From: Treponemataceae bacterium
GTDB taxonomy: Bacteria; Spirochaetota; Spirochaetia; Treponematales; Rectinemataceae
Direction of reading: 5' to 3'
DNA length: 64,000 bases
Assembly (NCBI GenBank): GCA_963667725.2
Contig: CAXXHO010000005.1
Coordinates: 384,001-448,000 of the forward strand
The translations under genes and the position numbers were made by a program. The notes under the pieces are model-generated. The model ran no database searches and was not told the DNA's origin. It saw nothing but the letters and a program-made list of their open reading frames with translations. The stretch's first letter is position 1. Every line of letters begins with the position of its first letter. Positions 12,813 to 33,453 of the stretch are shown here, in pieces.

Positions 12813-12931
12813 ACCGAACAACTGCTTCAACCTTATAAAGCCTTTTGTCATAGTTTTTGCAGAACAACAATGCAAAAACCACGCCAATCCTTCGCTTCGC
12901 TCAGGCCAGGCTTTAAAGGTTAAGCCAATGT
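12813..12931 (+). repeat. attC (inverted orientation), cut at R' by IS256
   Basis: ACCGAAC..GCTTCAACC....GGTTAAGCCAATGT then IS end. Confidence 0.85.
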
Positions 12932-15603
12932 GGTAGCGTCAACATTGGATAACGTACACTATCTTTCGCACATTTAGAGAGTTGAAAAGAGACGCCCTCA
13001 TCTGGTTAAGTTGAGTTACCAGACCAAACTTGGCCAAAAGGAGGGCGCCATGAACCCAAACGGTTCACAAGAAAAGATTATACGAATAGACGAAGGGCTC
13101 GTGAAGCGGGAACTGAGCGAGATCGTCCGAGGCACGGTGGAGGAGACTTTGAACAAACTTCTTGACGCTGAAGCAGACGAGCTGTGCGGTGCAGGAAGAT
13201 ATGAACGAAGTCCCGACCGGATCGACACAAGGGCCGGTTCGTATGAAAGAAACCTGGAGACGAAAGCCGGAAAGGTCAAACTCAAGGTACCCAAGTTGAG
13301 AACAATTCCTTTCGAGAGCGCGATCATTGACCGGTACAAACGCCGGGAATGCTCGGTAGAAGAAGCACTTATCGAGATGTACCTGGCTGGAGTGTCAGTC
13401 CGTCGCGTGGAAGACATTACCGAAGCCCTGTGGGGCACCAGGGCCTCGGCAGGGCTTATCTCCAAGCTTAACAAGCAAGTCTATGAAAAGATCGAATCTT
13501 GGCGGAACCGGAAGATAGAAGGTCGCCACGCTTACGTCTACCTGGATGGAATCGTGCTCAAACGAACCTGGGCGGATGAAGTCAGGAACGTCTCGATCCT
13601 TGTTGCCTTTGGGGTCAATGAAGACAGGTTCCGGGAGATTCTGGGAGCCGCGGAAGGGGCCAAGGAAGATAAAGCCGGCTGGGGCAGCTTCATCGCGAAT
13701 CTCAAGGAACGAGGGCTGACGGGTGTCAGGCTCTTCATCTCCGACAAGTGCATGGGCTTGGTGGAATCGCTGTCAGAATACTATCCTGACAGTCTCTGGC
13801 AACGTTGTACGGTATAATGAGCCGCGATAACTGGACAGGAATAGAGACAATATAAAGTGGACCGCTCCTCCTTGCAGAACGGAAAGAAGGAGGCATAGAG
13901 TTAGCTATGAGAAAGCGGTACGACAAAGAATTCAAGGCCAAAGTAGCCTTGGAAGCCCTGAAGGGCGAAAAGACTTTGCAGGAACTGGCGATTACTTACT
14001 CGGTCCATCCGAACATGATCGCGCTCTGGAAAAGGCAACTTTCGGAGCACGCATCGGCGCTCTTTGAGAAAGAAGGGAAGGATAAAACAACAGAAGACGC
14101 CACGAGGCAAAAGGATGAACTGTACAAACAGATAGGACAGCTCCAAGTGGAGAACGACTACCTTAAAAAAAAATACAAACAACTGTACGGGACCGATCCG
14201 AAATGGTAGAAGCCGATCATCCCGAGCTCTCAATAGCGCAGCAATGCACGATCCTCGGGATAGCTCGATCATCTTACTACTACCAGCCTAAGGAAGCTCC
14301 GGAAGATCATGATTTGGCTATTCTGGAAGCTATCCTCGAGGTGCTGAAAGAGAAACCGTTCTACGGTTACCGTAGAATAGCAAGGGAACTGATCTATTTG
14401 GACGTTACACGAAAGCAAGTTCGAAGGATTATGAAGAAAGCCGGATTACGGGCGATCTATCCTGGACTTCAGCTTTCCAAACCGTCCAAGGGTTCCAAGA
14501 AATACCCCTATTTACTTAGGGGGATGAATATTTGGCTACCGAATCAGGTGTGGGCGTCTGACATAACCTATATCAAGCTTTCTGGCGGTTACGTCTATCT
14601 GGTTACGATAATTGACCTGTATTCCAGGAAGATTCTGTCCTGGCGGGTTTCTAACACCATGGATGCCCAATTTTGTGTGTCGGCACTGGAAGAAGCAATT
14701 GCCCATTACGGAGTACCAGGCATTTTTAACACAGATCAAGGAAGCCAGTTTACTTCTGACGCCTTTGTGTCGGTGCTGGAATCTCATGGAATACAAATCA
14801 GCATGGATGGCGTAAACAGGGCGCTGGACAATATCTTTGTAGAACGGTTCTGGAGATCCTTGAAGTACGAGGACATTTATCTCAAGGATTACCGAACTAT
14901 GACAGAGCTGAAAGATGGGCTGGCTCGCTACCTTAGGTTTTATAACAGTGAGCGATTCCATCAATCGCTGGAGTACGAAACTCCAGACACTATTTATTGG
15001 AGTAAGTTCCCGGCAAGGGAACTCAAAGAAGCTGTATGAGAGGAGAAGGTGTCCACCTTATTCCTGATTCTTTTCTGTCTAGACAGGTGGGCTCATTATA
15101 TACGGTGCATTTCTACCGGAATGTGTTCACCAATGTCCCAAGTACCAAAGTGAAAGATGTGGCAGCGATGCTCAAGGCGATCCATGCCCAGGAAGACCGT
15201 CAGGCGGCCCTGGAGAAGGCGCAGGCCGTAGCAGAGAAGCTCAAAGCCATGAAATTGCATACCGCAGCCAAGACTCTTGAAGAGGGTATTCTGGAGACCT
15301 TGAGCTATACTGAATTCCCCCGTGAACATTGGCGAAAACTGAGGACCAACAATCCAATGGAACGGATCATGCGGGAGATCCGTCGTCGTACCCGGGTGGT
15401 TGGCAACTTCCCGGATGGTAATTCTGCGCTTATGCTGGTGACCTCTAGGTTGCGCTACATTGCTGGTCGTCAGTGGGGTACACGGTGCTATATGAATATG
15501 GAACTTTTATTCAAAGGAGAAATCGGCTACCAGATAATCGAGGCATAGACGGGAACTGGATGAGGGCTTCCCGATAAATGTGCGAAAGAATGTTGACGCT
15601 ACC
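12932..15603 (+). mobile_element. IS256-family element; transposase 13050-15548 interrupted by IS3
   Basis: IR GGTAGCGTCAACATT at both ends; YVYLDG, WQRCTVHF (split), LRTNNPMER; no TSD. Confidence 0.9.
13813..15100 (+). mobile_element. IS3-family element, copy 1 (orfA 13907-14209, orfB 14203-15039)
   Basis: IR TATAATGAGCC; 5-bp TSD TACGG; A9 slippery run 14165-14173; WASDITY, TDQGSQF, ERFWRSLKYE. Confidence 0.93.
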
Positions 15604-15869
15604 TTTTTTAATTTACCAATATTTTCACCCAATTCAAGAAACACCAGATCACTTTCTTTTGATATATACCCTTTATAATAGTATTCGCCATTCTTATTAA
15701 GCTTTACGGAATGGACCCTTCCTTCTTTTAGATATGGTCCAGCAATATCTACACTTAACTTTGATGTATCTACTCCAATAGTATCAATAATCTTCCCGGT
15801 TAACGTAAAATTATTTTTTGAACAACTAGTAATTACTAAGCATATAAGTAATAGAATCCAATTTCTCAT
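15604..15869 (-). pseudogene. Lipoprotein cassette gene, 3'-truncated by IS256
   Basis: MRNWILLLICLVITSC lipobox; frame runs into IS256 right end. Confidence 0.6.
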
Positions 15870-15915
15870 GTGCTCTCCAAAGCAAAACAAAAATATTTTC
15901 AATGTTTTTCTATAA

Positions 15916-15952
15916 ACCTAACATTGGCTTAACCTTTAAATCCGCGCCTGAG
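15916..15952 (-). repeat. attC half-site (R' arm) abutting IS1634
   Basis: ACCTAACATTGGCTTAACCTTTAAATCCGCGCCTGAG. Confidence 0.85.
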
Positions 15953-17875
15953 CTGGCGTTGTACAGTGCGCGGTATAGAAAATCTTGCTAATACTCTATA
16001 AATAATAGAGTTATACGATTGCAGTCGAAAATCTTTTATACCGCAACAGGATCTCTTGCTACTGTAGCAAGAACTTTCTTTGGTAATTCAATAGTTAAGC
16101 GCTTGAAAATGTCCTTCGCCTCGTCGGAAATATCAGAGCAATACCAGAGGCTTACATTGTCGCTCTCAATAAGCCCTGCAGTAACATCGGACAGAACTTT
16201 TTCAATCTGGTACCACGACCGGTCCGCCATATTCTCTGCATACCGTACCAGCACCATGGCAAGCCAGCAAATAAGAATATGGCTTCGAATACGATCATCA
16301 AGTCGGTGGTATATGGGACGAATATCCAAGGTGTTTTTCATATCCTTGAATACCCGCTCTATGGCCCAGAGCTGCTTATAGCCGGCAACAATATCGGCAG
16401 CATCCAGCTTCATGCTGGACGTCGACACTAGAAACTTGCCATCAAGGAGTTCCTCTGAGGCTATCTTGGCGGTGTCGAGGTGCAAGACACCCTTCGTATC
16501 CTGCCTAATGTATCTGCCATAGGCGGAATGAGAGCGTAGCGCACACGCCGCTTTCGTGTGTGCTTTCCCCGTATACTGCGACAGTTCATCAAGCTTGCGC
16601 TTCGTAGCATCGACGATTTGTTCGCGTATGACATGGTCGCGCGTTTCGGCTTCCGGATTCTTGACGATGATGAATCGGCGCTCCGTGGCTTTCCCTGCAT
16701 CGAGGACGACATCTTTAATCGCGAGGCCACTTTCCAGGATCCTGAATCGCCCTTTCCGGTGTAGGGCTTCTACCGCGGCGCCATCGGTACCAACGCGGAG
16801 CTTTTCGCCGATGATATAGTCACCGCATTCCCGTAAAAGGATTCTTCTGTTGTCGGCACTATTGAATCCTGCATCTTGGACCATGACGACATGACCAAGA
16901 TTCCACTGTCCTAGATCACCTTTCACCTGCTCGACGATCGTCTGGTCGCTCGTGTTGCCCGGGAATACCCAGCAGCGAATAGGAATGCCGCTACGCGTCA
17001 CCGCAAAGGCAATCGAAACCAACGGTAGCTCGGGGTGTCCATCTTTACTGTGGCCACGTTTTAAAAGCCCTGAACCGGAAGCATCTTCGTCGGTCTCGAA
17101 ATAGGTGTTCGTCGTATCAAGAAAGATAAGATCCACATCAAGGTGGGCATTCTTTGATACTTCGGTAAATATGTGCTTCTGGAGTTCTTCGCTCGACTCC
17201 ACAAGAAGATCCATCGCCCGGTAAAGATTGTGAACATCGACGTTCACAAGATCCCTGATATATGCTTTCTTTGAAACCCAGTGTTCAAGAGAAAGCTTCG
17301 AACCCGGAGCCAGGATCCTGCCTGCAACCATGGCAAAGCAGAGCCGTTCGACGGGTGTGGCGAACTGGCGTTCGTTAAGAAGCCCTTTGATAGCCTTTGC
17401 CATGCCAAGACGATTCCATAGGGCATCTAGAAGCCAGGTGCCCCCAAGCTCCCGACTTGAATGGAAGTCAAATCCGGCGGGGACTTCAGAAGGATATTCG
17501 CCTAAGACCGCAGACAGTGCCTTGATGATCGCCTGGATGTAGGAAGGCTCGATCTGATCTTCCCGTCCGAGCTTCATAAGGACATTGGTTTTGGTCTTTC
17601 CTGTTTCCTTGACGCGGTAGTTGTGCACAAGTTGAAGGTACGTATAGGTACCGCCTTGAGCATTCTTTAGGGTACATTTCCGTACGTTCATTATACCGCT
17701 AATTATACAACATAGTGTTTTATCTGTAAAGTTTTATTTCGAATATTTATAAATATCTTATACCGCATTTGCATCATGCTTTTTGTACAGTCCGTTTTTA
17801 GTTATTTGTTGTCAGTATAATATATTAAGCTGCTTTATTGCTTACTGTATTATACCACACGCTGTACAACGTCAG
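15953..17875 (-). mobile_element. IS1634-family element A, copy 1 (transposase 16036-17691)
   Basis: IRs CTGRCGTTGTACAG; FLDTTNTYFE, GHSKD, FPGNTSD, IERVFKDMK, RPIYH. Confidence 0.92.
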
Positions 17876-17899
17876 TTAAGGGTCAAGCCAATGTTATGC
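17876..17899 (+). repeat. attC fragment (R' end, inverted)
   Basis: TTAAGGGTCAAGCCAATGTTATGC. Confidence 0.8.
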
Positions 17900-17932
17900 G
17901 GACGCTTCGCGCAAGTATACTTGAAATTATAC

Positions 17933-17961
17933 TTGACAATAGACGTAAGTAAATGTACTAT
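17933..17961 (+). promoter_or_regulatory. Sigma70-type promoter of vapBC cassette
   Basis: TTGACA-17-TACTAT. Confidence 0.7.
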
Positions 17962-17982
17962 TCATAGCATAGGAGAATGCTT

Positions 17983-18213
17983 ATGCCGCAAATATCACTC
18001 TATATCGATGAAAAGACCTTGAAGAAGGTAGAAAATGTCGCGAAGCGACAACATACATCAATCTCAAAATGGGTTGCTGAGCAGATTCGATCTCGAGTTG
18101 AACCAGCATATCCTGTAAATTTTGAAGCGCTCTTTGGATCTATTACTGATGATACTTTTGTTGAACCTAAAGAAATATCCTTTAGTTCTGATTTAGCAAG
18201 GGAAGAAATGTAA
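17983..18213 (+). CDS. vapB: Antitoxin (RHH-type, VapB)
   Basis: MPQISLYIDE..SISKWV; overlaps toxin start. Confidence 0.75.
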   Translation: MPQISLYIDEKTLKKVENVAKRQHTSISKWVAEQIRSRVEPAYPVNFEALFGSITDDTFVEPKEISFSSDLAREEM

Positions 18214-18611
18214 TGTATTATTTAGACACAAATACATGCATTTACTTTCTAAATGGAAAGTATGAATCTGTAAAGACAAAGATTCTCACAACACTTCCAA
18301 ATGAAATAGCAATTCCATCAATTGTGAAAGCAGAATTACTTCTTGGAGCTTATAAGAGTAAAAACAGAAAAAGTAATATTGAGAAAATTGAAAAGTTTTT
18401 AGAACCATTTGAGATAGTAGCATTTGATGACGTAATGGCTTATACGTATGCAGATATTAGGTATAAAACAGAAAAGATTGGAGAGAATGTTGGGCCTAAC
18501 GATCTTTTTATAGCGGCAATTGTAAAATTTCATGAAGGTACATTGGTAACGAATAATGATAAAGAGTTTAGCAGAATTGAAGGATTGAAAATAGAAAACT
18601 GGGTAAAATAA
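18213..18611 (+). CDS. vapC: PIN-domain toxin
   Basis: YYLDTNTCI, AELLLGA, GPNDLFIAA, LVTNN.KEFSRI.GLKIENW. Confidence 0.9.
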   Translation: MYYLDTNTCIYFLNGKYESVKTKILTTLPNEIAIPSIVKAELLLGAYKSKNRKSNIEKIEKFLEPFEIVAFDDVMAYTYADIRYKTEKIGENVGPNDLFIAAIVKFHEGTLVTNNDKEFSRIEGLKIENWVK

Positions 18612-18615
18612 TTTC

Positions 18616-20452
18616 GCATAACAACCGTTTCAACCTTATAACGCTCTTAGTCACCTGAATTCCCAGTAAATTGTAGCTAGGCGACGACCGGCAATTCAAT
18701 GTTTAAGAGCTCCAAGATTTCTCGCTGTGGCTTTGTTATCTCGGTAAGTATCTGACCATATTTTCCTGCATAACGAATCTTAGTAAGCGGATCCATTTCA
18801 AGCAACAATTCCTGAACTGTATATTTTTCAATGAGTTTTGACTGTCGCATTTCTCTTCGTAAAGCACTTGTAAAAATGAGCGCTATGAATTGTATAAAGA
18901 GCCTGCCGTCGACAGTTTCTATCGTGTGCATACGAAGGCGTTTCATGTCCAGGCTATTCTTCAGATCGTCGAAACATTTCTCCACGATATCTTTGTCACG
19001 ATATACTTGGAGTGCCTCATCGGGATCTTTAAAGCGCGTCGTGAAAATCGCCTGAAACCCCGCATAACGTTTGATATACTGACTTACCGCGTCGTTGTTG
19101 TACGAAACCTTCATCCCCCGCACCGGCGTCGTCGTGATGATAAAAAAGGTCTCGTACTGTTCTTTGTTCTCGGCCTTTGGTTTTCCTGACTCCAGCTCTT
19201 CCTTGTAGGTTATGAGTTCTCTATTAAACCGATCGATTGCATGAGCTCTCATCTGGGCGTTGTAGTAAAGGTGCAGATAACAACGTCGCCGATCTTCTCC
19301 CCAGGGATGGAGCATTGAGTGAACATACAGTACCTCATCGTCGATCATCCTGTAGTGTTCAGGCCCCTGAATCGTATCGTAGATCTCGTCTATGGCTTTC
19401 TGAATCCATAGATTATTCAAAGGAACCGAAAGAGTGAAATGGTCTTTTCGCTCTAAAAGTTCATCAACGTTCTTCTTGCTGTAGAACCCTTTATCAAGCA
19501 CATAGTGCAGATTCTTGATAGCTAGTTTCTTAAAGGTCGCTAGAAGATTGTGTACCGTTTGCACATCAGTGATATTGCCAGGAATCCTGTGATAGTACAC
19601 TGGTAGTTTGCTCTTCTGACCGAAGAGCATGGCCAAATTAAGCTGGGGAAGCTTCTCCTTATCTCTGTTGTGTCCCCAGCGGATGTAGTCATTGAACGCA
19701 CTGTAGGATGAAATGCTCGTGATATCGTAGCAGAGATATTCATCCTCAAGAATTTTATCCATCCAGGATGACAAAAACGATTGCTTTGCTCCTGTCGATA
19801 TGGATCCAAGAATCTCGCTTATCCTCTGGCTTGTAAGTGGCTTTGTTGCTGGATGTTCATGGGTTTTGGTCCACGATTCGCATTGGCTTAAGGGCCCTCC
19901 CTGGCAGGCAAGGTAATAAACCATAGTAAGAATTTGTGCAGAGCATTCAGGGAATGCCGCTTTTAAAAGCCTCGCGACTCCCAGCCGCTTGGATATTTCA
20001 TCGAGAATTAACGAAGGTCCAACGATAGTTGCTGTCGCCGTACCGATAGATTCGTTATCTTGTATAGCACTCTGCGTTATGCGCTTTGATGGAATAAATG
20101 CTCCGGTTGTTGGATCAATTTTGCCAATACAGACTTGCGTACTGCGTGCCTGTTGTTTTTCTTTGTCCCAACGAGATACCGATTCATAGACATACGTCAC
20201 GCCGGTTTTCTTATTGAGATGATGTATACGATAGGGCATTAAGCTGATCCTGCATTCATAGCTGTAATTGTAGCTATGTTTGCTTATTCTGTCAATGCTT
20301 ATTCGCATATATCTAATAGATTTATTCAATCCCTAGCTACAATTTTCCGGGAAATTAGGTAGTCATGGTTTGTGCAGAACAACAATGCACAAACCACGCC
20401 AATCCCTCGCTTTGCTCGGGAACGAGCGTTAAAGGTTAAGCCAATGTTATGC
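18616..20452 (+). repeat. attC (inverted) split by IS1634-family element B
   Basis: GCATAAC arm 18616-18653 and GTTATGC arm 20360-20452. Confidence 0.85.
18654..20359 (-). mobile_element. IS1634-family element B (transposase 18677-20239)
   Basis: 28-bp imperfect IRs CCT..TTCCC.G.AAATTGTAGCTAGG; 6-bp TSD TAGTCA; YDITSISSYS, PGNITDV, DKGFYS, VEKCFDDLKN. Confidence 0.9.
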
Positions 20453-20518
20453 GGACTCGCGCATTCGCGCGAGCTAAGTTATTATAATAGAAGTATATAA
20501 AAAAGTATAATGTTGTTC

Positions 20519-20547
20519 TTGACATTACACATACTAATGTGTAAATT
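20519..20547 (+). promoter_or_regulatory. Promoter with palindromic operator
   Basis: TTGACA-17-TAAATT overlapping TTACACAT-acta-ATGTGTAA. Confidence 0.65.
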
Positions 20548-20567
20548 ATTGACATAAGGAGGACATT

Positions 20568-20765
20568 ATGGCTACAAACCTCGCTATAGATGATAGATTG
20601 CTCACGAAAGCACTTGAAATTGGCGGTTATAAATCAAAAAAGGACACTGTTAATGCTGCACTTGATGAATTTATCAAAAGAAGAAAAGCAAAAGAGCTAA
20701 TAGATATTTTTGGTACAATAGAATATGACGCTTCTTATGATTACAAGAAAATGAGATCAAGATGA
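20568..20765 (+). CDS. vapB: VapB antitoxin (DUF2191-like)
   Basis: MATNLAIDDRLL..KKDTVNAALDEFI. Confidence 0.85.
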   Translation: MATNLAIDDRLLTKALEIGGYKSKKDTVNAALDEFIKRRKAKELIDIFGTIEYDASYDYKKMRSR

Positions 20766-21175
20766 AACGAGTATTAGTAGATACTTCGGTATGGTCTCTT
20801 GCACTAAGAAAAAAGGAAAGAACTGAGGAAGAACAAAAGATAGTAAGTCATCTATCAAAATTGATAAGTAATCTTACTGTTGTTCTTATAGGTCCAATAC
20901 GACAAGAAATTTTATCAGGAATCTCAACGAAAGAACGATTTGAAGCACTTAAAGAAAGGATATCAATATTTGAAGATCATACGATACATACCCATGATTA
21001 TGAACTTGCTGCAGAATACTTTAATGAGTGTAGAAAGCATGGTATACAAGGATCTCATATAGATTACCTCATATGCTCTGTTGCCTCAAATAATGACATG
21101 TCAATATTTACATTAGATAATGATTTTCAGCTGTATAAAAAGCATATAAGAATAAAGTTAGAGAAATACGCATAA
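20762..21175 (+). CDS. vapC: PIN-domain toxin
   Basis: VLVDTSVWS, IRQEILSG, IDYLICS, TLDNDF. Confidence 0.88.
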   Translation: MKRVLVDTSVWSLALRKKERTEEEQKIVSHLSKLISNLTVVLIGPIRQEILSGISTKERFEALKERISIFEDHTIHTHDYELAAEYFNECRKHGIQGSHIDYLICSVASNNDMSIFTLDNDFQLYKKHIRIKLEKYA

Positions 21176-21294
21176 CAAAAGCTTCAACCCTATAACGCCT
21201 TTTGTAATGGTTTTTGCAGAACAACAATGCAAAAACCACGCCAATCCTTCGCTTCGCTCAGGAACAGGCGTTAAGGGTTAAGCCAATGTTAGAT
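21170..21294 (+). repeat. attC (inverted, intact)
   Basis: GCATAAC...GTTAGAT, 125 bp. Confidence 0.9.
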
Positions 21295-21417
21295 CTATTG
21301 AATAACAAACTCCGAGTAGATTTTGATGCTTTGGTATATAAAATTAGATTCTAATTGTACAATAATAGTAAACAAGTAACAACATGATATGCTTTGTACG
21401 TAAAAAAAGAGTGTAAC

Positions 21418-21924
21418 ATGAAGGCTAAAATACTTACCGTTGTTATTATTTTTGCATTTGTTTTTTCTGTATTTTCGCAAGAACAACAATCTTTAGAAGA
21501 ATACTTCAACAGTGAAATTATAAAAGTTAGTTATCCCTTCGGAAGTGGGGTTTCATTAAATGTTAATGGTACAACATCAACAATTGGTTGGAGGTTGTCT
21601 CCAGTAATTTCTAATATGCTGAATCAGTACCCAACAAGTAAAGTATCATTTGAACAATATAAAAAAGAAAACAGAACTGGAAATGTATTATTATGGAGTG
21701 GCTTAGGTGGGATGATGGCTAGCACTCTGGTGTTTTCATATAAGAATAGTGATGTAACTGGTAATATTAATTTTAGTGATCCAGTAAATGTTGTATCTTT
21801 TTCAGGAATATTTATTGGATCAATAATTGAAGTTGTAGGCGCATTTATTATGAGTTCAGGATATGAAGACTTATTCAATTCAATTAATCAGTACAATTTA
21901 GAAAAGATTAAGGAATATAAATAA
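21418..21924 (+). CDS. Hypothetical exported/membrane protein
   Basis: Signal peptide plus two hydrophobic segments; fills a cassette. Confidence 0.7.
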   Translation: MKAKILTVVIIFAFVFSVFSQEQQSLEEYFNSEIIKVSYPFGSGVSLNVNGTTSTIGWRLSPVISNMLNQYPTSKVSFEQYKKENRTGNVLLWSGLGGMMASTLVFSYKNSDVTGNINFSDPVNVVSFSGIFIGSIIEVVGAFIMSSGYEDLFNSINQYNLEKIKEYK

Positions 21925-21935
21925 AGCATATTAAG

Positions 21936-22027
21936 ATCTAACATCTGCTTCGACCCTATAACGCCCTTTGTCATGGTTTGTGCAGAACAACAATGCACAA
22001 ACCACGCCAATTCTTCGCTTCGCTCAG
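21936..22027 (+). repeat. attC (inverted) truncated by IS1634
   Basis: ATCTAAC...TTCGCTTCGCTCAG then IS end. Confidence 0.85.
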
Positions 22028-23950
22028 CTGACGTTGTACAGCGTGTGGTATAATACAGTAAGCAATAAAGCAGCTTAATATATTATACTGACAACAAATA
22101 ACTAAAAACGGACTGTACAAAAAGCATGATGCAAATGCGGTATAAGATATTTATAAATATTCGAAATAAAACTTTACAGATAAAACACTATGTTGTATAA
22201 TTAGCGGTATAATGAACGTACGGAAATGTACCCTAAAGAATGCTCAAGGCGGTACCTATACGTACCTTCAACTTGTGCACAACTACCGCGTCAAGGAAAC
22301 AGGAAAGACCAAAACCAATGTCCTTATGAAGCTCGGACGGGAAGATCAGATCGAGCCTTCCTACATCCAGGCGATCATCAAGGCACTGTCTGCGGTCTTA
22401 GGCGAATATCCTTCTGAAGTCCCCGCCGGATTTGACTTCCATTCAAGTCGGGAGCTTGGGGGCACCTGGCTTCTAGATGCCCTATGGAATCGTCTTGGCA
22501 TGGCAAAGGCTATCAAAGGGCTTCTTAACGAACGCCAGTTCGCCACACCCGTCGAACGGCTCTGCTTTGCCATGGTTGCAGGCAGGATCCTGGCTCCGGG
22601 TTCGAAGCTTTCTCTTGAACACTGGGTTTCAAAGAAAGCATATATCAGGGATCTTGTGAACGTCGATGTTCACAATCTTTACCGGGCGATGGATCTTCTT
22701 GTGGAGTCGAGCGAAGAACTCCAGAAGCACATATTTACCGAAGTATCAAAGAATGCCCACCTTGATGTGGATCTTATCTTTCTTGATACGACGAACACCT
22801 ATTTCGAGACCGACGAAGATGCTTCCGGTTCAGGGCTTTTAAAACGTGGCCACAGTAAAGATGGACACCCCGAGCTACCGTTGGTTTCGATTGCCTTTGC
22901 GGTGACGCGTAGCGGCATTCCTATTCGCTGCTGGGTATTCCCGGGCAACACGAGCGACCAGACGATCGTCGAGCAGGTGAAAGGTGATCTAGGACAGTGG
23001 AATCTTGGTCATGTCGTCATGGTCCAAGATGCAGGATTCAATAGTGCCGACAACAGAAGAATCCTTTTACGGGAATGCGGTGACTATATCATCGGCGAAA
23101 AGCTCCGCGTTGGTACCGATGGCGCCGCGGTAGAAGCCCTACACCGGAAAGGGCGATTCAGGATCCTGGAAAGTGGCCTCGCGATTAAAGATGTCGTCCT
23201 CGATGCAGGGAAAGCCACGGAGCGCCGATTCATCATCGTCAAGAATCCGGAAGCCGAAACGCGCGACCATGTCATACGCGAACAAATCGTCGATGCTACG
23301 AAGCGCAAGCTTGATGAACTGTCGCAGTATACGGGGAAAGCACACACGAAAGCGGCGTGTGCGCTACGCTCTCATTCCGCCTATGGCAGATACATTAGGC
23401 AGGATACGAAGGGTGTCTTGCACCTCGACACCGCCAAGATAGCCTCAGAGGAACTCCTTGATGGCAAGTTTCTAGTGTCGACGTCCAGCATGAAGCTGGA
23501 TGCTGCCGATATTGTTGCCGGCTATAAGCAGCTCTGGGCCATAGAGCGGGTATTCAAGGATATGAAAAACACCTTGGATATTCGTCCCATATACCACCGA
23601 CTTGATGATCGTATTCGAAGCCATATTCTTATTTGCTGGCTTGCCATGGTGCTGGTACGGTATGCAGAGAATATGGCGGACCGGTCGTGGTACCAGATTG
23701 AAAAAGTTCTGTCCGATGTTACTGCAGGGCTTATTGAGAGCGACAATGTAAGCCTCTGGTATTGCTCTGATATTTCCGACGAGGCGAAGGACATTTTCAA
23801 GCGCTTAACTATTGAATTACCAAAGAAAGTTCTTGCTACAGTAGCAAGAGATCCTGTTGCGGTATAAAAGATTTTCGACTGCAATCGTATAACTCTATTA
23901 TTTATAGAGTATTAGCAAGATTTTCTATACCGCGCACTGTACAACGCCAG
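22028..23950 (+). mobile_element. IS1634-family element A, copy 2 (transposase 22212-23867)
   Basis: Same IRs and protein as copy 1; no TSD. Confidence 0.92.
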
Positions 23951-24164: not shown

Positions 24165-24503
24165 TTATCTTATTATTACTTCTATTTTTTCTATTACTTC
24201 TTCCATTTTTTTGTCTCCAATTTTTTCTATAAATTCTATATTTCTTTCTCTCCAATCTAAACTCTTTATCTGATCACTTAATACAGAGCCTTTTATCTTT
24301 TTTAACTCTAACTCAACTTCAAATGGATATCCCTTTACCTTACTTGTAATTGGGCAAAATAATGCTAATCCAATTTTCTCATTATATGCTTTAAATGATA
24401 ATGTGAGTGCTGGTCTTCTTCCCCTTTGTTCATGGCCCAATTGTGGGTTGAAGTCCAACCAAACAATGTCTCCTCTCTCAGGAATATAGCTTTTACTTAC
24501 CAT
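24165..24503 (-). CDS. mazF: MazF endoribonuclease toxin
   Basis: YIPERGDIVWLDFNPQLGHEQRGRRPAL, CPITSKVKGYPFEV, DQIKSLDW. Confidence 0.93.
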   Translation of the reverse strand: MVSKSYIPERGDIVWLDFNPQLGHEQRGRRPALTLSFKAYNEKIGLALFCPITSKVKGYPFEVELELKKIKGSVLSDQIKSLDWRERNIEFIEKIGDKKMEEVIEKIEVIIR

Positions 24504-24730
24504 TCTTCTTTTCCTATTGAAGATCCAGTATCAACAAAGGCATGCAGATTTTCTTCTTTTACTTGAGAAAGAAGTGATTCAAGCGTCGTTTTCTTTGGAA
24601 GAATAACAAGCTTTCCACCATCTTCCAATATTTCTACTGAGCTTCCACCCTTAAGATCAAATTCTTTCACATACAGCGAAGGAATACGTATACCAAGGCT
24701 ATTACCCCATTTTTGAACAACTGTTTTCAT
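24497..24730 (-). CDS. mazE: MazE antitoxin
   Basis: QKWGNSLGIRIP AbrB motif; GGAGG RBS. Confidence 0.9.
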   Translation of the reverse strand: MKTVVQKWGNSLGIRIPSLYVKEFDLKGGSSVEILEDGGKLVILPKKTTLESLLSQVKEENLHAFVDTGSSIGKEEW

Positions 24731-24748
24731 AAGAACCTCCACAATAAT

Positions 24749-24777
24749 AGTATACACATTGTATATCTATTTGTCAA
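24749..24777 (-). promoter_or_regulatory. Promoter of mazEF cassette
   Basis: TTGACA-17-TATACT. Confidence 0.75.
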
Positions 24778-24989: not shown

Positions 24990-25412
24990 TTACTTATTTC
25001 TTATTGCAATTGGATGATCTTTATTCAGCTGTAAAAGGTCCCACAAGTTTCCATAAAGATCTTCAAATACAGCTACCATTCCATAATCTGCTTTTTTAGG
25101 CTCTCTAATAAACTTAATTCCCTCTTTTATCATATTTTTATAATCTCTCCAAAAATCATCGGTATTAAGAAATAAAAACACTCTTCCACCGGTTTGATTT
25201 CCAATAAATGGTTCTTGTTCTGACTTAGATGCTTTAGCAAGTAATATGGTAGTTCCAGAACCTCCAGGAGGAGCAATAACTACCCATCGTTTATTCTGTT
25301 CAGGCTGATATGTGTCTTCAATGAGAACAAAATTTAGTTTCTTTATATAGAAATTAAGTGCCTCATCATAATCTTTTACAACGAGTGCTATATGTACAAT
25401 TGATTGTTTCAT
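24990..25412 (-). CDS. VOC/glyoxalase-family protein
   Basis: HIALVVKDYDEA, GNQTGGRVFLFL, VFEDLYGNLWDL. Confidence 0.9.
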   Translation of the reverse strand: MKQSIVHIALVVKDYDEALNFYIKKLNFVLIEDTYQPEQNKRWVVIAPPGGSGTTILLAKASKSEQEPFIGNQTGGRVFLFLNTDDFWRDYKNMIKEGIKFIREPKKADYGMVAVFEDLYGNLWDLLQLNKDHPIAIRNK

Positions 25413-25496: not shown

Positions 25497-25623
25497 ATCG
25501 AACATTCGTTTAACCTTTAAACCACATTCCTGAGCGAAGCGAGGGATTGGCACGTGTTTTTGCATGAGATTTCATGCAAAAACCGTGACAACGTGGTTTA
25601 TAAGGTTGAAACGGTTGTTATAA
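25497..25623 (-). repeat. attC of the recombinase cassette
   Basis: ATCGAAC...GTTATAA; covarying stem AAACCAC/GTGGTTT. Confidence 0.9.
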
Positions 25624-25686
25624 GTCTTCCTTTCTATACTATGTATCGTATAATCACAATATTTCTGCATTTTAAAAGGAATAAAT

Positions 25687-26571
25687 ATGGGCACACTAAA
25701 AAACAAAATGGTAGACAATATGATCGCTCATGGATATTCAGATAAAACAATAAAACTGTATACTTGTTGTGTTAAATGCTTTTCTTATCATTATATGAAG
25801 TCTCCTCTTAAAATTACTTATCAAGAAATTGAGTCCTTTTTCCTCTACTTAAGAAAACAGAAAAAAAGTGAATCAACAATACATATTTACTACGAAGCAT
25901 TAAAATTCTTCTATTCAATGTACAATCTAAAAGAACGAATTCCATACTTCAATTTTTCTCATTGTAATAATAGACTACCGGAAGTCCTATGCCAAAATGA
26001 AGTTTTTCAACTCTTGGAACAATGTAATAGCTTAAAGTATCGTACTATTTTGACACTGATCTACTCTGCTGGCCTACGCGTCTCAGAAGCCGCAAAACTC
26101 AAGCTGTCAGATATCGATTTTAACCGAAAGCAAATATTCGTACGAAATGGAAAGAATAAGAAAGATCGGTATACTCTACTTGCTAATGAAACCATCCTGA
26201 TCTTAAAGCAATATATGCAAATATATAATCCCGTAGATTATGTTTTTTATACTAATGATATAGCAAAAAGCATATCTACAGACTGTATCCAACAATACTT
26301 TAAGAAGTTACTATCACAGTGTAATATAAGTAAGACTATTCATGTGCATACTTTACGCCATTGTTTTGCAACCCATTTACTAGAAAATGGAACAAGCATT
26401 TTTTATATCATGCATTTACTTGGTCATTCCAATATTCAGACTACAATGATATATCTTCATATGCGGTCTTTAGAAAACCTGAATATTGTATCTCCCATGG
26501 ATAATCATCATTTTGACCCGACGAAAACACCTACAATAGTAGGTCATCAGATGCTTCTACAATCGGCTTAA
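25687..26571 (+). CDS. Tyrosine recombinase (IntI/XerD-like, N-terminal SAM-like domain) carried as a cassette
   Basis: YSAGLRVSE, GKNKKDR, HTLRHCFATHLLE, LLGHSNIQTTMIY; no IntI-specific insertion. Confidence 0.92.
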   Translation: MGTLKNKMVDNMIAHGYSDKTIKLYTCCVKCFSYHYMKSPLKITYQEIESFFLYLRKQKKSESTIHIYYEALKFFYSMYNLKERIPYFNFSHCNNRLPEVLCQNEVFQLLEQCNSLKYRTILTLIYSAGLRVSEAAKLKLSDIDFNRKQIFVRNGKNKKDRYTLLANETILILKQYMQIYNPVDYVFYTNDIAKSISTDCIQQYFKKLLSQCNISKTIHVHTLRHCFATHLLENGTSIFYIMHLLGHSNIQTTMIYLHMRSLENLNIVSPMDNHHFDPTKTPTIVGHQMLLQSA

Positions 26572-26590
26572 CATTCTGCCCGAAGGGTCC

Positions 26591-26714
26591 TTATAACATT
26601 GGCTTAACCCTTAACGCCTGTTCCTGAGCGAAGCGAAGGATTGGCGTGGTTTGTGCATTGTTGTTCTGCACAAACCATGACAAAGGATTTACAAGGTTGA
26701 AGCACGTGTTAGAA
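26591..26714 (-). repeat. attC (arms from different subtypes)
   Basis: TTATAAC...GTTAGAA. Confidence 0.88.
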
Positions 26715-26777: not shown

Positions 26778-27119
26778 TCATCCCCAAAAACAACAATATT
26801 TATCATCTTCTACTGTCTTTATAAAGGCATTCAATGTTTTTACTTCTTCTTTTGGCTCATACGAGTGCCATTTTGAGTCTGCTCTCATCCAATATATCTT
26901 CCATATATTTTCTTTATGGATATATGTAGTCTTTGCAATAGGAGACTCAACTTTTTTCTTACTCATAATTTCTCTAATTTCAAATATTATTATACTTTGC
27001 CGTTCAATTTTATAACTAATATCTATTTTATTTCGAATATCTTCTTTTGGACGTATTTTTTCAATATAATCTTCAATTATTTTTGAGTATTTCTTTATCT
27101 CTTCTTCTGTAAATGCCAT
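26778..27119 (-). CDS. DUF3024-family protein
   Basis: PIAK.TY....WKIYWMRAD.KWHSYEP, D...CFWG. Confidence 0.8.
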   Translation of the reverse strand: MAFTEEEIKKYSKIIEDYIEKIRPKEDIRNKIDISYKIERQSIIIFEIREIMSKKKVESPIAKTTYIHKENIWKIYWMRADSKWHSYEPKEEVKTLNAFIKTVEDDKYCCFWG

Positions 27120-27222: not shown

Positions 27223-27344
27223 TCCTAACATTGGCTTAACCGGTAATTCCGTGCCCGAAGGGCTTGGCGCGGTTTGTGCATAAAGAGCGAAGCGATTGCA
27301 TAAACCGTGACAAAGGAATTATCCGGTTGAAGCAGTTGTTAGCC
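27223..27344 (-). repeat. attC
   Basis: TCCTAAC...GTTAGCC. Confidence 0.9.
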
Positions 27345-28301
27345 ATTTCTTTTTGTATATTTTGTCATCCGTCCATTACCAGTCGTTTCCAATACTCCAT
27401 CTAGTATTAGCTGTTTCAAATCTCTGCTTGCTGTTGCTGTCGATATCCCTTTATTTACTTTTATATACTCTTTCCTATCAAACCATCCAACTAATATAGA
27501 AAGTGCATAATCAGCTCTCTTTTTATAGTCAATATTTGGTATCTTTGTGCCTTCTATAGTCTTTCTTAGGCTCTCATTAATCACTTCAAGCATAAATTCT
27601 ATAAATTGTGTCGACTTTCCCTCATTATCAGAATCCTCTAATACTTTATAATATTTTTCTTGATTATTTCTAATAGTCTCTTCTATTGGAATGTATTCAA
27701 AAATGGGATTCGCATCCATAAGTAATCTGGTTTGCCAAAACCTACCCATTCTTCCATTTCCATCTTCGAATGGATGGATAAATTCCATCTCATAATGAAA
27801 GACGCAACTTTTTATTATATCAAGATCATTATCTTTCTTAATATAATCAAACAAATCTTTCATCAGCCCAGGAACCATACTATACCCTGGTGCAATATGC
27901 TGTACTTCTTTTCCCTTAATAATCCCAACTTGTTTTTGTCGAAATTTCCCAGGATTATCTACTAATCCTTCCATCAAGATTCCATGAGCTCGTAAAAAAT
28001 CGTTCATTGAGTAAGCTTTTAATTGATTTAATTGATCATATGCCCTAATTGCATTTTGTACCTCAAGTATATCTTTTTTAGGACCTACAACATGCACTTT
28101 ATCAATGATTGCAGTGACATGTTCAATATCTAATGTATTTCCTTCTATTGCCAATGAAGAATGAATAGTTTTTATTCTATTTTGTCTTCTTAACTTAGCT
28201 TCTGGTTTAACCAATAGAAGACTTTTACATTGCCCTAAAGCCTCACTTATCTGTCCATATAGAAAGAGGATTCTATTTGTTATCGCATATGGCGGTTTCA
28301 T
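27339..28301 (-). CDS. Fic-domain protein
   Basis: HPFEDGNGRMGR and SSLAIEGN motifs; C-terminal HTH. Confidence 0.92.
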   Translation of the reverse strand: MKPPYAITNRILFLYGQISEALGQCKSLLLVKPEAKLRRQNRIKTIHSSLAIEGNTLDIEHVTAIIDKVHVVGPKKDILEVQNAIRAYDQLNQLKAYSMNDFLRAHGILMEGLVDNPGKFRQKQVGIIKGKEVQHIAPGYSMVPGLMKDLFDYIKKDNDLDIIKSCVFHYEMEFIHPFEDGNGRMGRFWQTRLLMDANPIFEYIPIEETIRNNQEKYYKVLEDSDNEGKSTQFIEFMLEVINESLRKTIEGTKIPNIDYKKRADYALSILVGWFDRKEYIKVNKGISTATASRDLKQLILDGVLETTGNGRMTKYTKRNG

Positions 28302-31809: not shown

Positions 31810-33453
31810 TTAATACTTATGTACTCTATCTTCTATATTTTCTGGGATATCCAACAGTTTTATATTTTTAATTTGTGCATCACGATATTTTACTGAAAAT
31901 TCAAAGATATTGATATTAAAATATAAACCACCTTTGCAATATTTCTCATAAATTTTATGAATACCAATATGATACAATATAGAATTAACTAACAAAATCT
32001 CAGATCTTGAAATAGCTTTCGAATATACTTTATGATTAATTTTATTTTCTCTATAAAGATACCAAAACTTTATATTCTTATCTTTTATACACCATATTAA
32101 TAAAGGAACAACTGATAAAACATATATTATAGGTCGTGCAACATTGATAATGATTCTCTGAATGTGCCCTCTTTGCTTTCTAAATATGGTACTCAGTAAC
32201 TCCTAACGCATAAAGTGTTAGGATGGGAACGTGGGAAAATATAGAAGAATCACGAACAAAGATCGTGAAGAGATCACCGTTTACCTAAATCTTGGGAATA
32301 GCCAAGAGGCTATCGCTAAAATGATGGGTTTTTCACAGTCAACCATATCGCGTGAACTTAAGAAGGGACACGATAGAGGCTTCTATAACCCATTTCTCGC
32401 GCAGCGGACTACTGATAAGCGAGCAAAACGTAGAATCCCTGCGCTTAAGATAAATAGTCCAACATGGCAGGTGATCAAAAATCATCTTTCAATCCGTTGG
32501 TCACCGTTTCAAATAGCAGACTTCCTGCATACTTGTTCAAACGATGCTACAATAATAGCTGTGAGCGAGAAAACGATCTATAGCTACCTTCATTTTCATA
32601 TGAAGGGAGAACTGAAAAAGCTAGCGATTCTGGAGCTTCGTCAAAAGGGTAAAAAGCGTACAAAACGGGGTGAAGAAAAACGCGGAAAGCTTGCAAACAT
32701 TACGCTTATTGACGAAAGGCCAGAAGAAGTAGATTCAAGAGCCGTCCCTGGCCATTGGGAAGGCGATCTGATTATTGGGAAAGATCATAAATCAGCATTA
32801 AGCGTTATTGTCGAACGGCAAACACGATATGTTCTCATTGATCGACTTGAAGACTATTCAGCGGAAGAAGTCAGGAAAAGCATAGAGAAACGCCTTAAGA
32901 CAATAGAGCCAAAGCTTGTAAAGAGCTTAACCTGTGATCAAGGCAAAGAAATGGCGGAGCATGAAAAACTGGCTTGCAGAATAAAGATGAAGGTTTACTT
33001 TTGTCACCCCCATTCTCCTTGGGAAAAGGGAACCTGTGAAAATACAAATTTCTTAATTCGTGATATGCTCGATGGAGAAACAGACTTTAGGAATCTAACC
33101 CAACGAGATATTTCGCGTGTTGCTCGATTACTTAATGAACGGCCAAGGCAAACTCTTGGGATGGTACCTCCCAAGAAAAAATTCGACTGTTTATGCAATG
33201 AGAGTTACTGACAAACTATTGATTCATTGCTAATTACAATACATGGTTTCCCATTCTTACCTTTATGTAAATAGTAAGGGTCGAATGGCATATTAATACC
33301 AGGAAATACTTTAACTGTCTGTTTTTTTGCTATAATATAAATTGCATCAAGATTAGAAACATCTCCATTGTCAATTTGGCTTATCGTATTCTCAATTATT
33401 TTTTGTAGTCGTTCCTTATTATAATCTTCTGAATATATATAGAGATTGATCAT
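31810..33453 (-). pseudogene. Hypothetical cassette gene split by IS30
   Basis: Removing the IS restores frame ...NESIVCTIFRKQRGHIQR... Confidence 0.65.
32193..33211 (+). mobile_element. IS30-family element, copy 2 (transposase 32231-33211)
   Basis: Same length, IRs and protein as copy 1. Confidence 0.92.

What the first reader, a model, noticed from the sequence alone, without database searches (positions are those of the whole stretch)
25497..26597. A tyrosine recombinase that is itself a gene cassette
Seen: an intact 294-aa recombinase (R, K, HxxR, H, Y present) lies between perfectly complementary ends GTTATAAG (25617) and CTTATAAC (26590-26597). It has its own attC, leader hairpin and trailer, is inverted relative to the array, and has a TATAAT (25649) and AAGGA RBS. 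It resembles IntI at both catalytic boxes, but the segment between KDR and HTLRH is short and lacks the IntI insertion (ALERKYP..WxWVF in IntI1) used on folded attC. Inference: a mobile recombinase cassette that could be a self-mobilising minimal integron, a non-canonical integrase for this attC family, an accessory resolvase or IntI modulator, or a passenger.
Basis: partly seen in the sequence, partly recalled or inferred. Interest (0 to 1): 0.9.

Follow-up and report, generated by a model that had tools for sequence, protein, structure and literature searches.

The report
Recombinase carried as an integron cassette
A spirochaete gene-swapping array carries, as one of its swappable units, an intact DNA-recombinase gene from a conserved and apparently undescribed family; it is probably not the enzyme that runs the array, but most relatives end in a tag like those that dock proteins onto the DNA-copying machinery.

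Summary
Bases 25503-26596 are a true cassette with an intact attC and an inverted, intact 294-aa tyrosine recombinase lacking the IntI insertion. It is not the array's integrase: a canonical intI heads the array 140 kb away, and the genome holds three. The protein belongs to a tight, mainly spirochaete clade (100/100), sister to recombinases that precede IS91-type transposases, but is never found beside such a transposase (0 of 34 loci). Clade members lie inverted in arrays with four attC types in 6 of 42 genomes/contigs, have a decayed site in 1, and are solo genes in 35. Both states show purifying selection and invariant catalytic residues. New here: a flexible C-terminal tail with a beta-clamp-like motif (QxxLF in 48 of 119 homologues, 0 of 53 IS91-type, 0.2% of host proteins), degenerate in this copy. 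Best reading: an active accessory recombinase, moved by other integrases, acting in trans near replication forks; substrate unknown. A self-mobilising mini-integron is unlikely. Activity on attC is not excluded, since insertion-less recombinases head attC arrays in other spirochaetes (the scan noted those before; it had no note on this family). No description found in ten literature searches.

The parts
25503..26596 (-). The whole gene cassette (1094 bp) in array orientation, from the TT of the previous attC's core to the G of its own attC core
   Evidence: attC spacing 1094; complementary ends; a groundwater contig of 1112 nt covers 25501-26609 with 25 differences
25501..25619 (-). The cassette's own attC; the + strand is the recombinogenic bottom strand; it lies upstream of the inverted gene
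   Evidence: fold z -8.9; profile hit E 7.8e-22
25649..25654 (+). -10-like hexamer TATAAT, putative own promoter; no good -35
   Evidence: sequence; promoter scan below threshold; similar hexamer in 8 of 22 clade leaders
25676..25680 (+). Ribosome-binding site AAGGA
   Evidence: sequence; purine-rich RBS in most non-f20 leaders
25687..26571 (+). 294-aa tyrosine recombinase, PF13495 + PF00589, no IntI insertion, no N-terminal extension; catalytic R131, K156, H221, R224, H247, Y256
26491..26568 (+). Flexible 26-residue C-terminal tail; family consensus Q-x-[EDQ]-L-F-x-x-S-A resembles the beta-clamp motif; degenerate in this copy (Gly at the Gln position)
   Evidence: pLDDT under 50 for residues 280-282 and 285-294
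26579..26587 (-). Small leader hairpin at the cassette start in array orientation, downstream of the gene's stop
   Evidence: sequence; similar hairpins in other cassettes
26595..26710 (-). attC of the preceding cassette (DUF3024 gene); supplies the other excision site
   Evidence: fold z -4.2; profile hit E 7.6e-34; Pfam

Best explanation
A genuine integron cassette whose cargo is an active Xer/IS91-type tyrosine recombinase of a distinct, mainly spirochaete clade. SHOWN: cassette structure; canonical IntI at the array head; a well-supported clade sister to IS91-associated recombinases but free of the transposase; occurrence as inverted cassettes and as solo genes; purifying selection; invariant catalytic residues; an enriched QxxLF-type tail. 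INFERRED: the cassette is moved in trans by the array's own integrase; it is inverted because it has its own promoter and is expressed far from Pc; the tail binds the beta sliding clamp and brings the enzyme to replication forks; there it acts as an accessory recombinase/resolvase on replication-linked intermediates of mobile DNA (for example cassette circles, dimers or junctions), not as the primary attC integrase. The substrate is not identified.
For: intI with the insertion heads the same array and two more exist. Tree: clade 100/100, with IS91-type recombinases 99/97, IntI and long array-head recombinases outside. IS91 transposase motif downstream of 57 of 78 outer loci, 0 of 34 clade loci; Y2 transposase family in 1 of 10 carrier genomes, broken. 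Inverted in 6 of 6 array contexts. dN/dS 0.081 (159 codons, query vs L011) and 0.060-0.063 (diverged copies in G369); solo pairs 0.044-0.284. Six catalytic residues invariant in 56 sequences. Tail: QxxLF 48 of 119, loose form 71 of 119; shuffled tails mean 1.2 and 5.3, maximum 5 and 12; 0 of 53 IS91-type and 0 of 30 long recombinases; 5 of 2378 host proteins. Published clamp consensus Q-L-x-L-F at flexible C-termini (PMC4549789, PMC3971601, passages). Neither the I2 insertion nor the N-terminal extension of array-head enzymes is present.
Against: No substrate or cognate site was found: no shared dyad in 22 leaders. The query's own tail lacks the Gln, and 8 of 34 clade loci do not match the motif. 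Co-occurrence with canonical IntI (8 of 11 carriers vs 120 of 401 genomes) is confounded by kinship. 26 of the 35 solo copies come from one family. No expression data (one search found only small shares in RNA runs). Insertion-less recombinases do head attC arrays elsewhere, so lack of I2 does not rule out attC activity.
Confidence: 0.45

Rival explanations
1. A second, insertion-less attC recombinase: it excises or shuffles cassettes, itself included, finding hairpins on the lagging-strand template through clamp recruitment instead of the I2 helix.
For: Always inverted next to its own attC in arrays (6 of 6); three copies in one array, two 99.5% identical; best fold match is VchIntIA 2A3V, TM 0.75; in G369 an array of 73 attC-like sites has no IntI over the cut-off and is headed by a 345-aa insertion-less recombinase; 18 of 40 such long recombinases, judged by eye, have downstream attC-like repeats; attC folding is favoured on the lagging-strand template (PMC5371416, passages).
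Against: Never seen heading an array; every array context in a full genome has another integrase in that genome; lacks both I2, which docks the extrahelical bases (PMC7790495, passages), and the N-terminal extension of the array-head enzymes; 35 of 42 relatives have no detected attC; found with four unrelated attC types; its own attC is decayed in G317 (z -1.2) and L011 while the G317 gene is intact.
Confidence: 0.2
2. A defence or anti-mobile-element effector: a clamp-recruited recombinase that nicks, traps or mis-resolves replicating phage or plasmid DNA, kept in arrays like other defence cassettes.
For: Patchy presence (11 of 401 genomes of the order), frequent loss, own promoter, purifying selection both inside and outside arrays; sedentary arrays are reported as stores of defence genes (10.1101/2024.07.02.601686, search listing only).
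Against: No PADLOC match; no partner gene is conserved beside it; no direct evidence.
Confidence: 0.15
3. A DNA-binding modulator of IntI or of cassette expression, in which catalysis is secondary.
For: Similar N-terminal and catalytic folds to IntI; 10 of 11 carriers in the order have another IntI-like hit.
Against: All six catalytic residues are invariant in 56 sequences of 47-94% identity, which argues for selected catalysis.
Confidence: 0.1
4. A functionless passenger: a recombinase captured from an IS91-type element and drifting.
For: Sister to IS91-type recombinases; sits at the old end of the array here and is the last cassette in G317; several solo copies are pseudogenes.
Against: dN/dS 0.04-0.28 in 12 measurable pairs of 13; long, separate stem of the clade (0.75 changes per column); a tail motif absent from the IS91-type enzymes and from 40 of 41 of their transposase C-termini.
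Confidence: 0.1

Closest known systems
Tyrosine recombinases of IS91-type elements within the 'Integron-like' subgroup (Smyshlyaev et al., 10.1101/542381, passages; PMC8138268, passages)
   Same: Same two domains, same 59-residue KxxKDR-to-HxLRH spacing without the IntI insertion, 32-44% identity, sister clade 99/97.
   Different: No Y2 transposase downstream (0 of 34) and no IS end; carried as an attC cassette or solo gene; longer tail with a clamp-like motif (48 of 119 vs 0 of 53).
Integron integrases (IntI; VchIntIA, PDB 2A3V), here the Treponema-type co-oriented IntI (PMC3607928, passages)
   Same: Catalytic residues, C-terminal SPxD motif, best structural match (TM 0.75), association with attC.
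   Different: No I2 insertion, TIGR02249 175.5 bits against a cut-off of 265; lies inside the array as cargo, with no attI; no N-terminal extension.
Insertion-less recombinases of 340-400 aa that head attC arrays in spirochaetes (seen here; called HARP-type in the scan's unreviewed notes)
   Same: No IntI insertion, 30-42% identity, linked to attC arrays.
   Different: They head arrays co-oriented, carry an N-terminal extension shared with spirochaete IntI, and lack the tail; they branch outside the clade.
Transposases with a C-terminal beta-clamp motif (IS1634, IS91, IS200, Tn7 and others; PMC4549789, PMC3971601, passages)
   Same: Flexible C-terminal Q-x-x-L-F motif.
   Different: Those are DDE, HUH or serine transposases; no tyrosine recombinase with such a motif turned up in the listing.
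Archaeal XerA (PDB 5HXY; NF040815)
   Same: Best sequence match among solved structures (E 8e-34); NF040815 211 bits.
   Different: Below the cut-off of 220; the host has its own XerC and XerD-like genes.

Membership tests
Integron gene cassette | ORF bounded by GTT core and an attC with R and L boxes, extrahelical base and stable bottom-strand fold | tested here: met
Integron gene cassette | Lies in an array headed by intI and attI | tested here: met
   intI at C5:550877-552319 (-), co-oriented; 164 attC profile hits to the right of the cassette on the contig; attI position inferred from sequence after the intI stop
Integron gene cassette | Moves as a unit | tested here: met
   different neighbours in G317, G369, G969, L042, L011; contig covering exactly the cassette. 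Excision itself was not observed
Integron integrase (IntI) | IntI-specific insertion (I2) between patch II and III | tested here: not met
   59 vs 100 residues; alignment gap; TIGR02249 below cut-off
Integron integrase (IntI) | Gene adjacent to attI at the array head | tested here: not met
   inside or at the tail of arrays in all 6 array contexts
Integron integrase (IntI) | Recombines folded attC bottom strands | not testable with these tools
   needs an excision or integration assay
IS91-type element with upstream recombinase | Y2 (PF04986 + PF14319) transposase directly downstream | tested here: not met
   0 of 34 clade loci vs 57 of 78 outer loci; none in the own genome
IS91-type element with upstream recombinase | Recombinase falls within the IS91-associated clade | tested here: inconclusive
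   sister group 99/97; the IS91 group itself has 94/76, so nesting is not excluded; test_one_clade not run
Tyrosine recombinase (active) | R-K-H-R-H-Y catalytic set and PF00589 fold | tested here: met
Beta-clamp-binding proteins | Q-L-x-L-F-like motif in a flexible C-terminus | tested here: inconclusive
   met for the family (48 of 119 strict), not met for this copy (Gly at position 1)
Beta-clamp-binding proteins | Binding to DnaN | not testable with these tools
   needs a pull-down or competition assay
XerC/XerD/XerA chromosomal resolvase | Score above the curated cut-offs; core, single-locus gene | tested here: not met
   below all cut-offs; in 11 of 401 genomes of the order

The most novel reading that the evidence does not exclude
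A cassette-borne helper recombinase that is loaded at replication forks by the beta clamp and there recombines attC hairpins, or resolves the junction left by IntI, so that an integron carries a transferable, swappable second enzyme that changes its own shuffling rate; a third way (after the I2 helix and the N-terminal extension) for Xer-like enzymes to reach folded DNA sites.
Probability: 0.2. Interest if true: 0.85.

Novelty: new variant of a known kind. Interest (0 to 1): 0.58.

Why it matters
Cassettes are regarded as cargo and IntI as the only engine; Cury et al. (PMC4889954, passages) set aside the 50 insertion-less recombinases they found near attC sites as not IntI. A conserved, selected recombinase family that travels as a cassette shows such cases are not all noise. 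It is a compact, natural I2-less relative of IntI and of the uncharacterised IS91-type recombinases, so it makes two open questions testable: what those recombinases do, and what the ancestor of IntI could do on attC. A clamp-binding tail would be a direct link between a tyrosine recombinase and the replisome, relevant to the replication-dependent steps of integron recombination.

Tried and rejected
Complex prediction of the host DnaN with residues 262-294 of the query gave no verdict (score 0.02, mark 0.32); it is no evidence either way. A generic structural attC detector missed sites visible by eye, above all the f20 and L042 types, so it was replaced by profile and repeat searches; only two attC types were modelled, so some 'solo' copies may lie beside unmodelled or decayed sites (L202 lies near short attC-like repeats). 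The L042 and G369 flanking sites are recognised by box layout and repetition, but their folding energy is not or barely better than shuffles (z +0.3 to -1.7). A shared operator or dif-like dyad in 22 leaders: not found. Clean empty sites for solo copies: not found among 17 syntenic loci; losses are frameshifts or deletions. The idea that the tail motif came from the IS91 transposase C-terminus: 1 of 41 match (one search used a faulty pattern). Many homologues sit on 1-1.5 kb contigs, but such contigs are the norm in that collection, so this was not used. Viral contigs and plasmids gave no clade members among listed hits (best 38-44% over near full length). The genome-collection scan found one locus only. 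PADLOC: no match. The Y2 transposase searches had no ringing control genome. Rows left out of the trees: partial loci, 30 of 60 IS91-type rows and unlabelled outer rows; the IQ-TREE run used 44 chosen rows. Cury et al.'s supplements were searched in part (5 of 16 files not searched, figures not visible), so a member of this family may be among their 50 recombinases near attC. bioRxiv supplements were not seen.

Full report
1. Observation. The window is G000:C5:384001-448000 of a 4.2-Mb genome; a spirochaete by inference (a near-identical protein is labelled Spirochaetales; intI is co-oriented with its cassettes as in Treponema, PMC3607928, passages). The ORF 25687-26571 (+) encodes 294 aa with PF13495 and PF00589 and R131, K156, H221, R224, H247, Y256. 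It lies between attC sites at 25501-25619 (fold z -8.9) and 26595-26710 (z -4.2). The extra base is on the right arm of the + strand, so the array reads on the - strand; the cassette is 25503-26596 and the gene is inverted, with its own attC upstream of its start. Complementary ends are ordinary here (149 of 169 intervals) but inversion is rare (8 of 142 cassettes with an ORF of at least 80 aa). No full sigma-70 promoter passes the scan.

2. The array has its own integrase. The genome holds three IntI genes with the insertion. One, at C5:550877-552319 (-), heads this array; a pattern finds 131 attC on the + strand of C5 and a profile 168, of which 164 lie to the right of the cassette. The cassette is third from the distal end of the co-linear part; beyond an IS lies an inverted fragment of the array. 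The query scores 175.5 bits on TIGR02249 (cut-off 265) and is under every NCBIfam cut-off. The KxxKDR-to-HxLRH distance is 59 residues against 100 in that IntI. The model (pLDDT 81.8) matches VchIntIA 2A3V best (TM 0.75), then XerA; by sequence XerA is first.

3. The family. The protein search listed 120 relatives at 48-94% identity, nearly all 283-316 aa; the six catalytic residues are invariant in the 56 aligned. Against 1.84 billion representatives only about ten score above 290 bits, so the clade is small. In a FastTree of 154 rows and an IQ-TREE of 44 chosen rows the query falls in a clade with 100/100 support and a long stem, joined at 99/97 to recombinases that lie directly upstream of IS91-type Y2 transposases; canonical IntI and the long array-head recombinases branch outside. 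The transposase motif follows 57 of 78 outer metagenome loci (57 of 65 with at least 300 nt downstream) and 0 of 34 clade loci (Pfam check on one). PF04986 was found, broken, in 1 of 10 carrier genomes (no control rang). Smyshlyaev et al. place IS91 and IS3 recombinases without the insertion in the Integron-like subgroup (10.1101/542381, passages).

4. Cassette or solo. Flanks were read for 42 genomes or contigs. Array contexts, all inverted: this one; G317 (72%, last cassette of an array that runs from a canonical intI; 496-535 kb not examined); G369 (39%, three copies, two 99.5% identical); metagenome contig L042 (51%, seven repeats of a third attC type); G969 (44%, inside an array of a fourth type, upstream site z -4.9, downstream site degenerate); L011 (94%, contig ends in the gene, upstream attC only). 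G305 (62%) has a decayed site. The other 35 have no detected attC; 26 of them are f20 kin. Two attC profiles hit none of 82 outer loci. At one f20 locus the solo gene is ancestral and is lost by frameshift or deletion, with no clean empty site in 17 genomes. Near-identical cassettes occur in freshwater, landfill, wastewater, hydrocarbon and groundwater metagenomes (four runs laid); one contig of 1112 nt covers exactly the cassette and its attC at depth 32, while neighbouring cassettes reach 3-5. dN/dS is 0.081 for query vs L011 (159 codons), 0.060-0.063 for diverged G369 copies, 0.044-0.284 for solo pairs; one of 13 pairs is saturated.

5. A clamp-like tail. After the SPxD motif where IntI ends, the clade has a tail of median 26 residues ending Q-x-[EDQ]-L-F-x-x-S-A. 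QxxLF occurs in 48 of 119 tails and a looser form in 71; shuffled tails give means of 1.2 and 5.3 (maxima 5 and 12); 0 of 53 IS91-type and 0 of 30 long recombinases have either; 5 of 2378 host proteins have QxxLF in their last 22 residues. With a six-residue variant (recalled, from no call) 26 of 34 clade loci match, against 1 of 53 IS91-type and 1 of 115 lower-ranked representatives. The published consensus is Q-L-x-L-F in flexible C-termini (PMC4549789, PMC3971601, passages). The query's tail is low-confidence in the model but has Gly in place of the Gln, as do its closest relatives, so binding may be weak or lost in this lineage. Homologues are related, so the counts overstate independence.

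6. Does lack of the insertion exclude attC activity? I2 docks the extrahelical bases (PMC7790495, passages), and Cury et al. judged 50 insertion-less recombinases near attC not to be IntI (PMC4889954, passages). But G369 has 73 attC-like sites headed by a co-oriented 345-aa recombinase without the insertion and no IntI over the cut-off (16 kb withheld), and 18 of 40 similar long recombinases have downstream attC-like repeats by eye. The scan's earlier notes describe the same class. Those enzymes share an N-terminal extension with spirochaete IntI; the query has neither that nor I2. So attC activity is possible but has no structural support.

7. Mechanism. Best reading (0.45): cargo moved in trans by the array's integrase, expressed from its own promoter, and selected for catalysis on a target outside its own cassette, probably at replication forks through the clamp. 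Function cannot depend on being a cassette, since solo copies are equally constrained. A link to integrons is suggested, not shown: 8 of 11 carriers in the order have canonical IntI against 120 of 401 overall, two more have a long insertion-less recombinase, and one 87%-complete genome has neither listed; kinship confounds this. Rivals: second attC recombinase (0.2), defence effector (0.15; no PADLOC match), modulator (0.1), passenger (0.1).

8. Novelty. Ten searches of the held library listed no description of a cassette-encoded recombinase family or of a clamp motif on a tyrosine recombinase; I read passages of twelve papers and part of one supplement; the rest were listings. The nearest report is an entire IS91-like element next to an attC in Shewanella (PMC9229058, passages). 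The scan had no note on this sequence or family.

Noticed in passing
G369:C2:230394-306233 (L226-L229) and L249-L287: Arrays of attC-like sites headed by co-oriented 340-400 aa recombinases that lack the IntI insertion but share the N-terminal extension of spirochaete IntI; 73 sites in G369, which has no IntI over the cut-off; 18 of 40 such genes have downstream repeats. Pfam gives no name to the extension.
   Followed up: partly
window 12817-22028: Four attC sites face the opposite way to the main array, beside inverted copies of a 551-aa transposase (16036-17691, 22212-23867); the distal end of the array seems inverted and broken by IS elements.
   Followed up: no
G000 C5:408048-549997, C1:388-33677, C7:38584 onward: One genome holds three integrons, each with its own intact intI, and over 250 attC profile hits; the arrays are about 34% GC in a 56% GC genome.
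   Followed up: partly
G000 C5:495915-543819 (outside the window): Repeated very short cassettes of 273-298 bp with the same ends recur about ten times in the array.
   Followed up: no
L011 (contig of a genome labelled Bacteroidales): Carries a 94% identical recombinase, a spirochaete-type attC and an IS30-like transposase nearly identical to the one at window 32231-33211; either a mis-binned contig or cross-phylum transfer.
   Followed up: no
window 24165-24757, 24990-25412, 26778-27119, 27339-28301: Neighbouring cassettes: MazF/MazE toxin-antitoxin pair, glyoxalase-family protein, DUF3024 protein, Fic-domain protein.
   Followed up: no
L289 (G969:C1:2040000-2059999): Unusually long attC sites (about 175 bp) followed by conserved non-coding leader and trailer repeats shared between cassettes; the genome's canonical intI is broken.
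   Followed up: no
L293 (G1112:C11:34000-47218): Very short (about 50 bp) attC-like sites and a 240-300 bp dispersed repeat near a clade recombinase that is co-oriented with its neighbours.
   Followed up: no
L036, L042: The cassette ends are complementary over 10-18 bases beyond the core, which would extend the attC stem in the excised circle.
   Followed up: no
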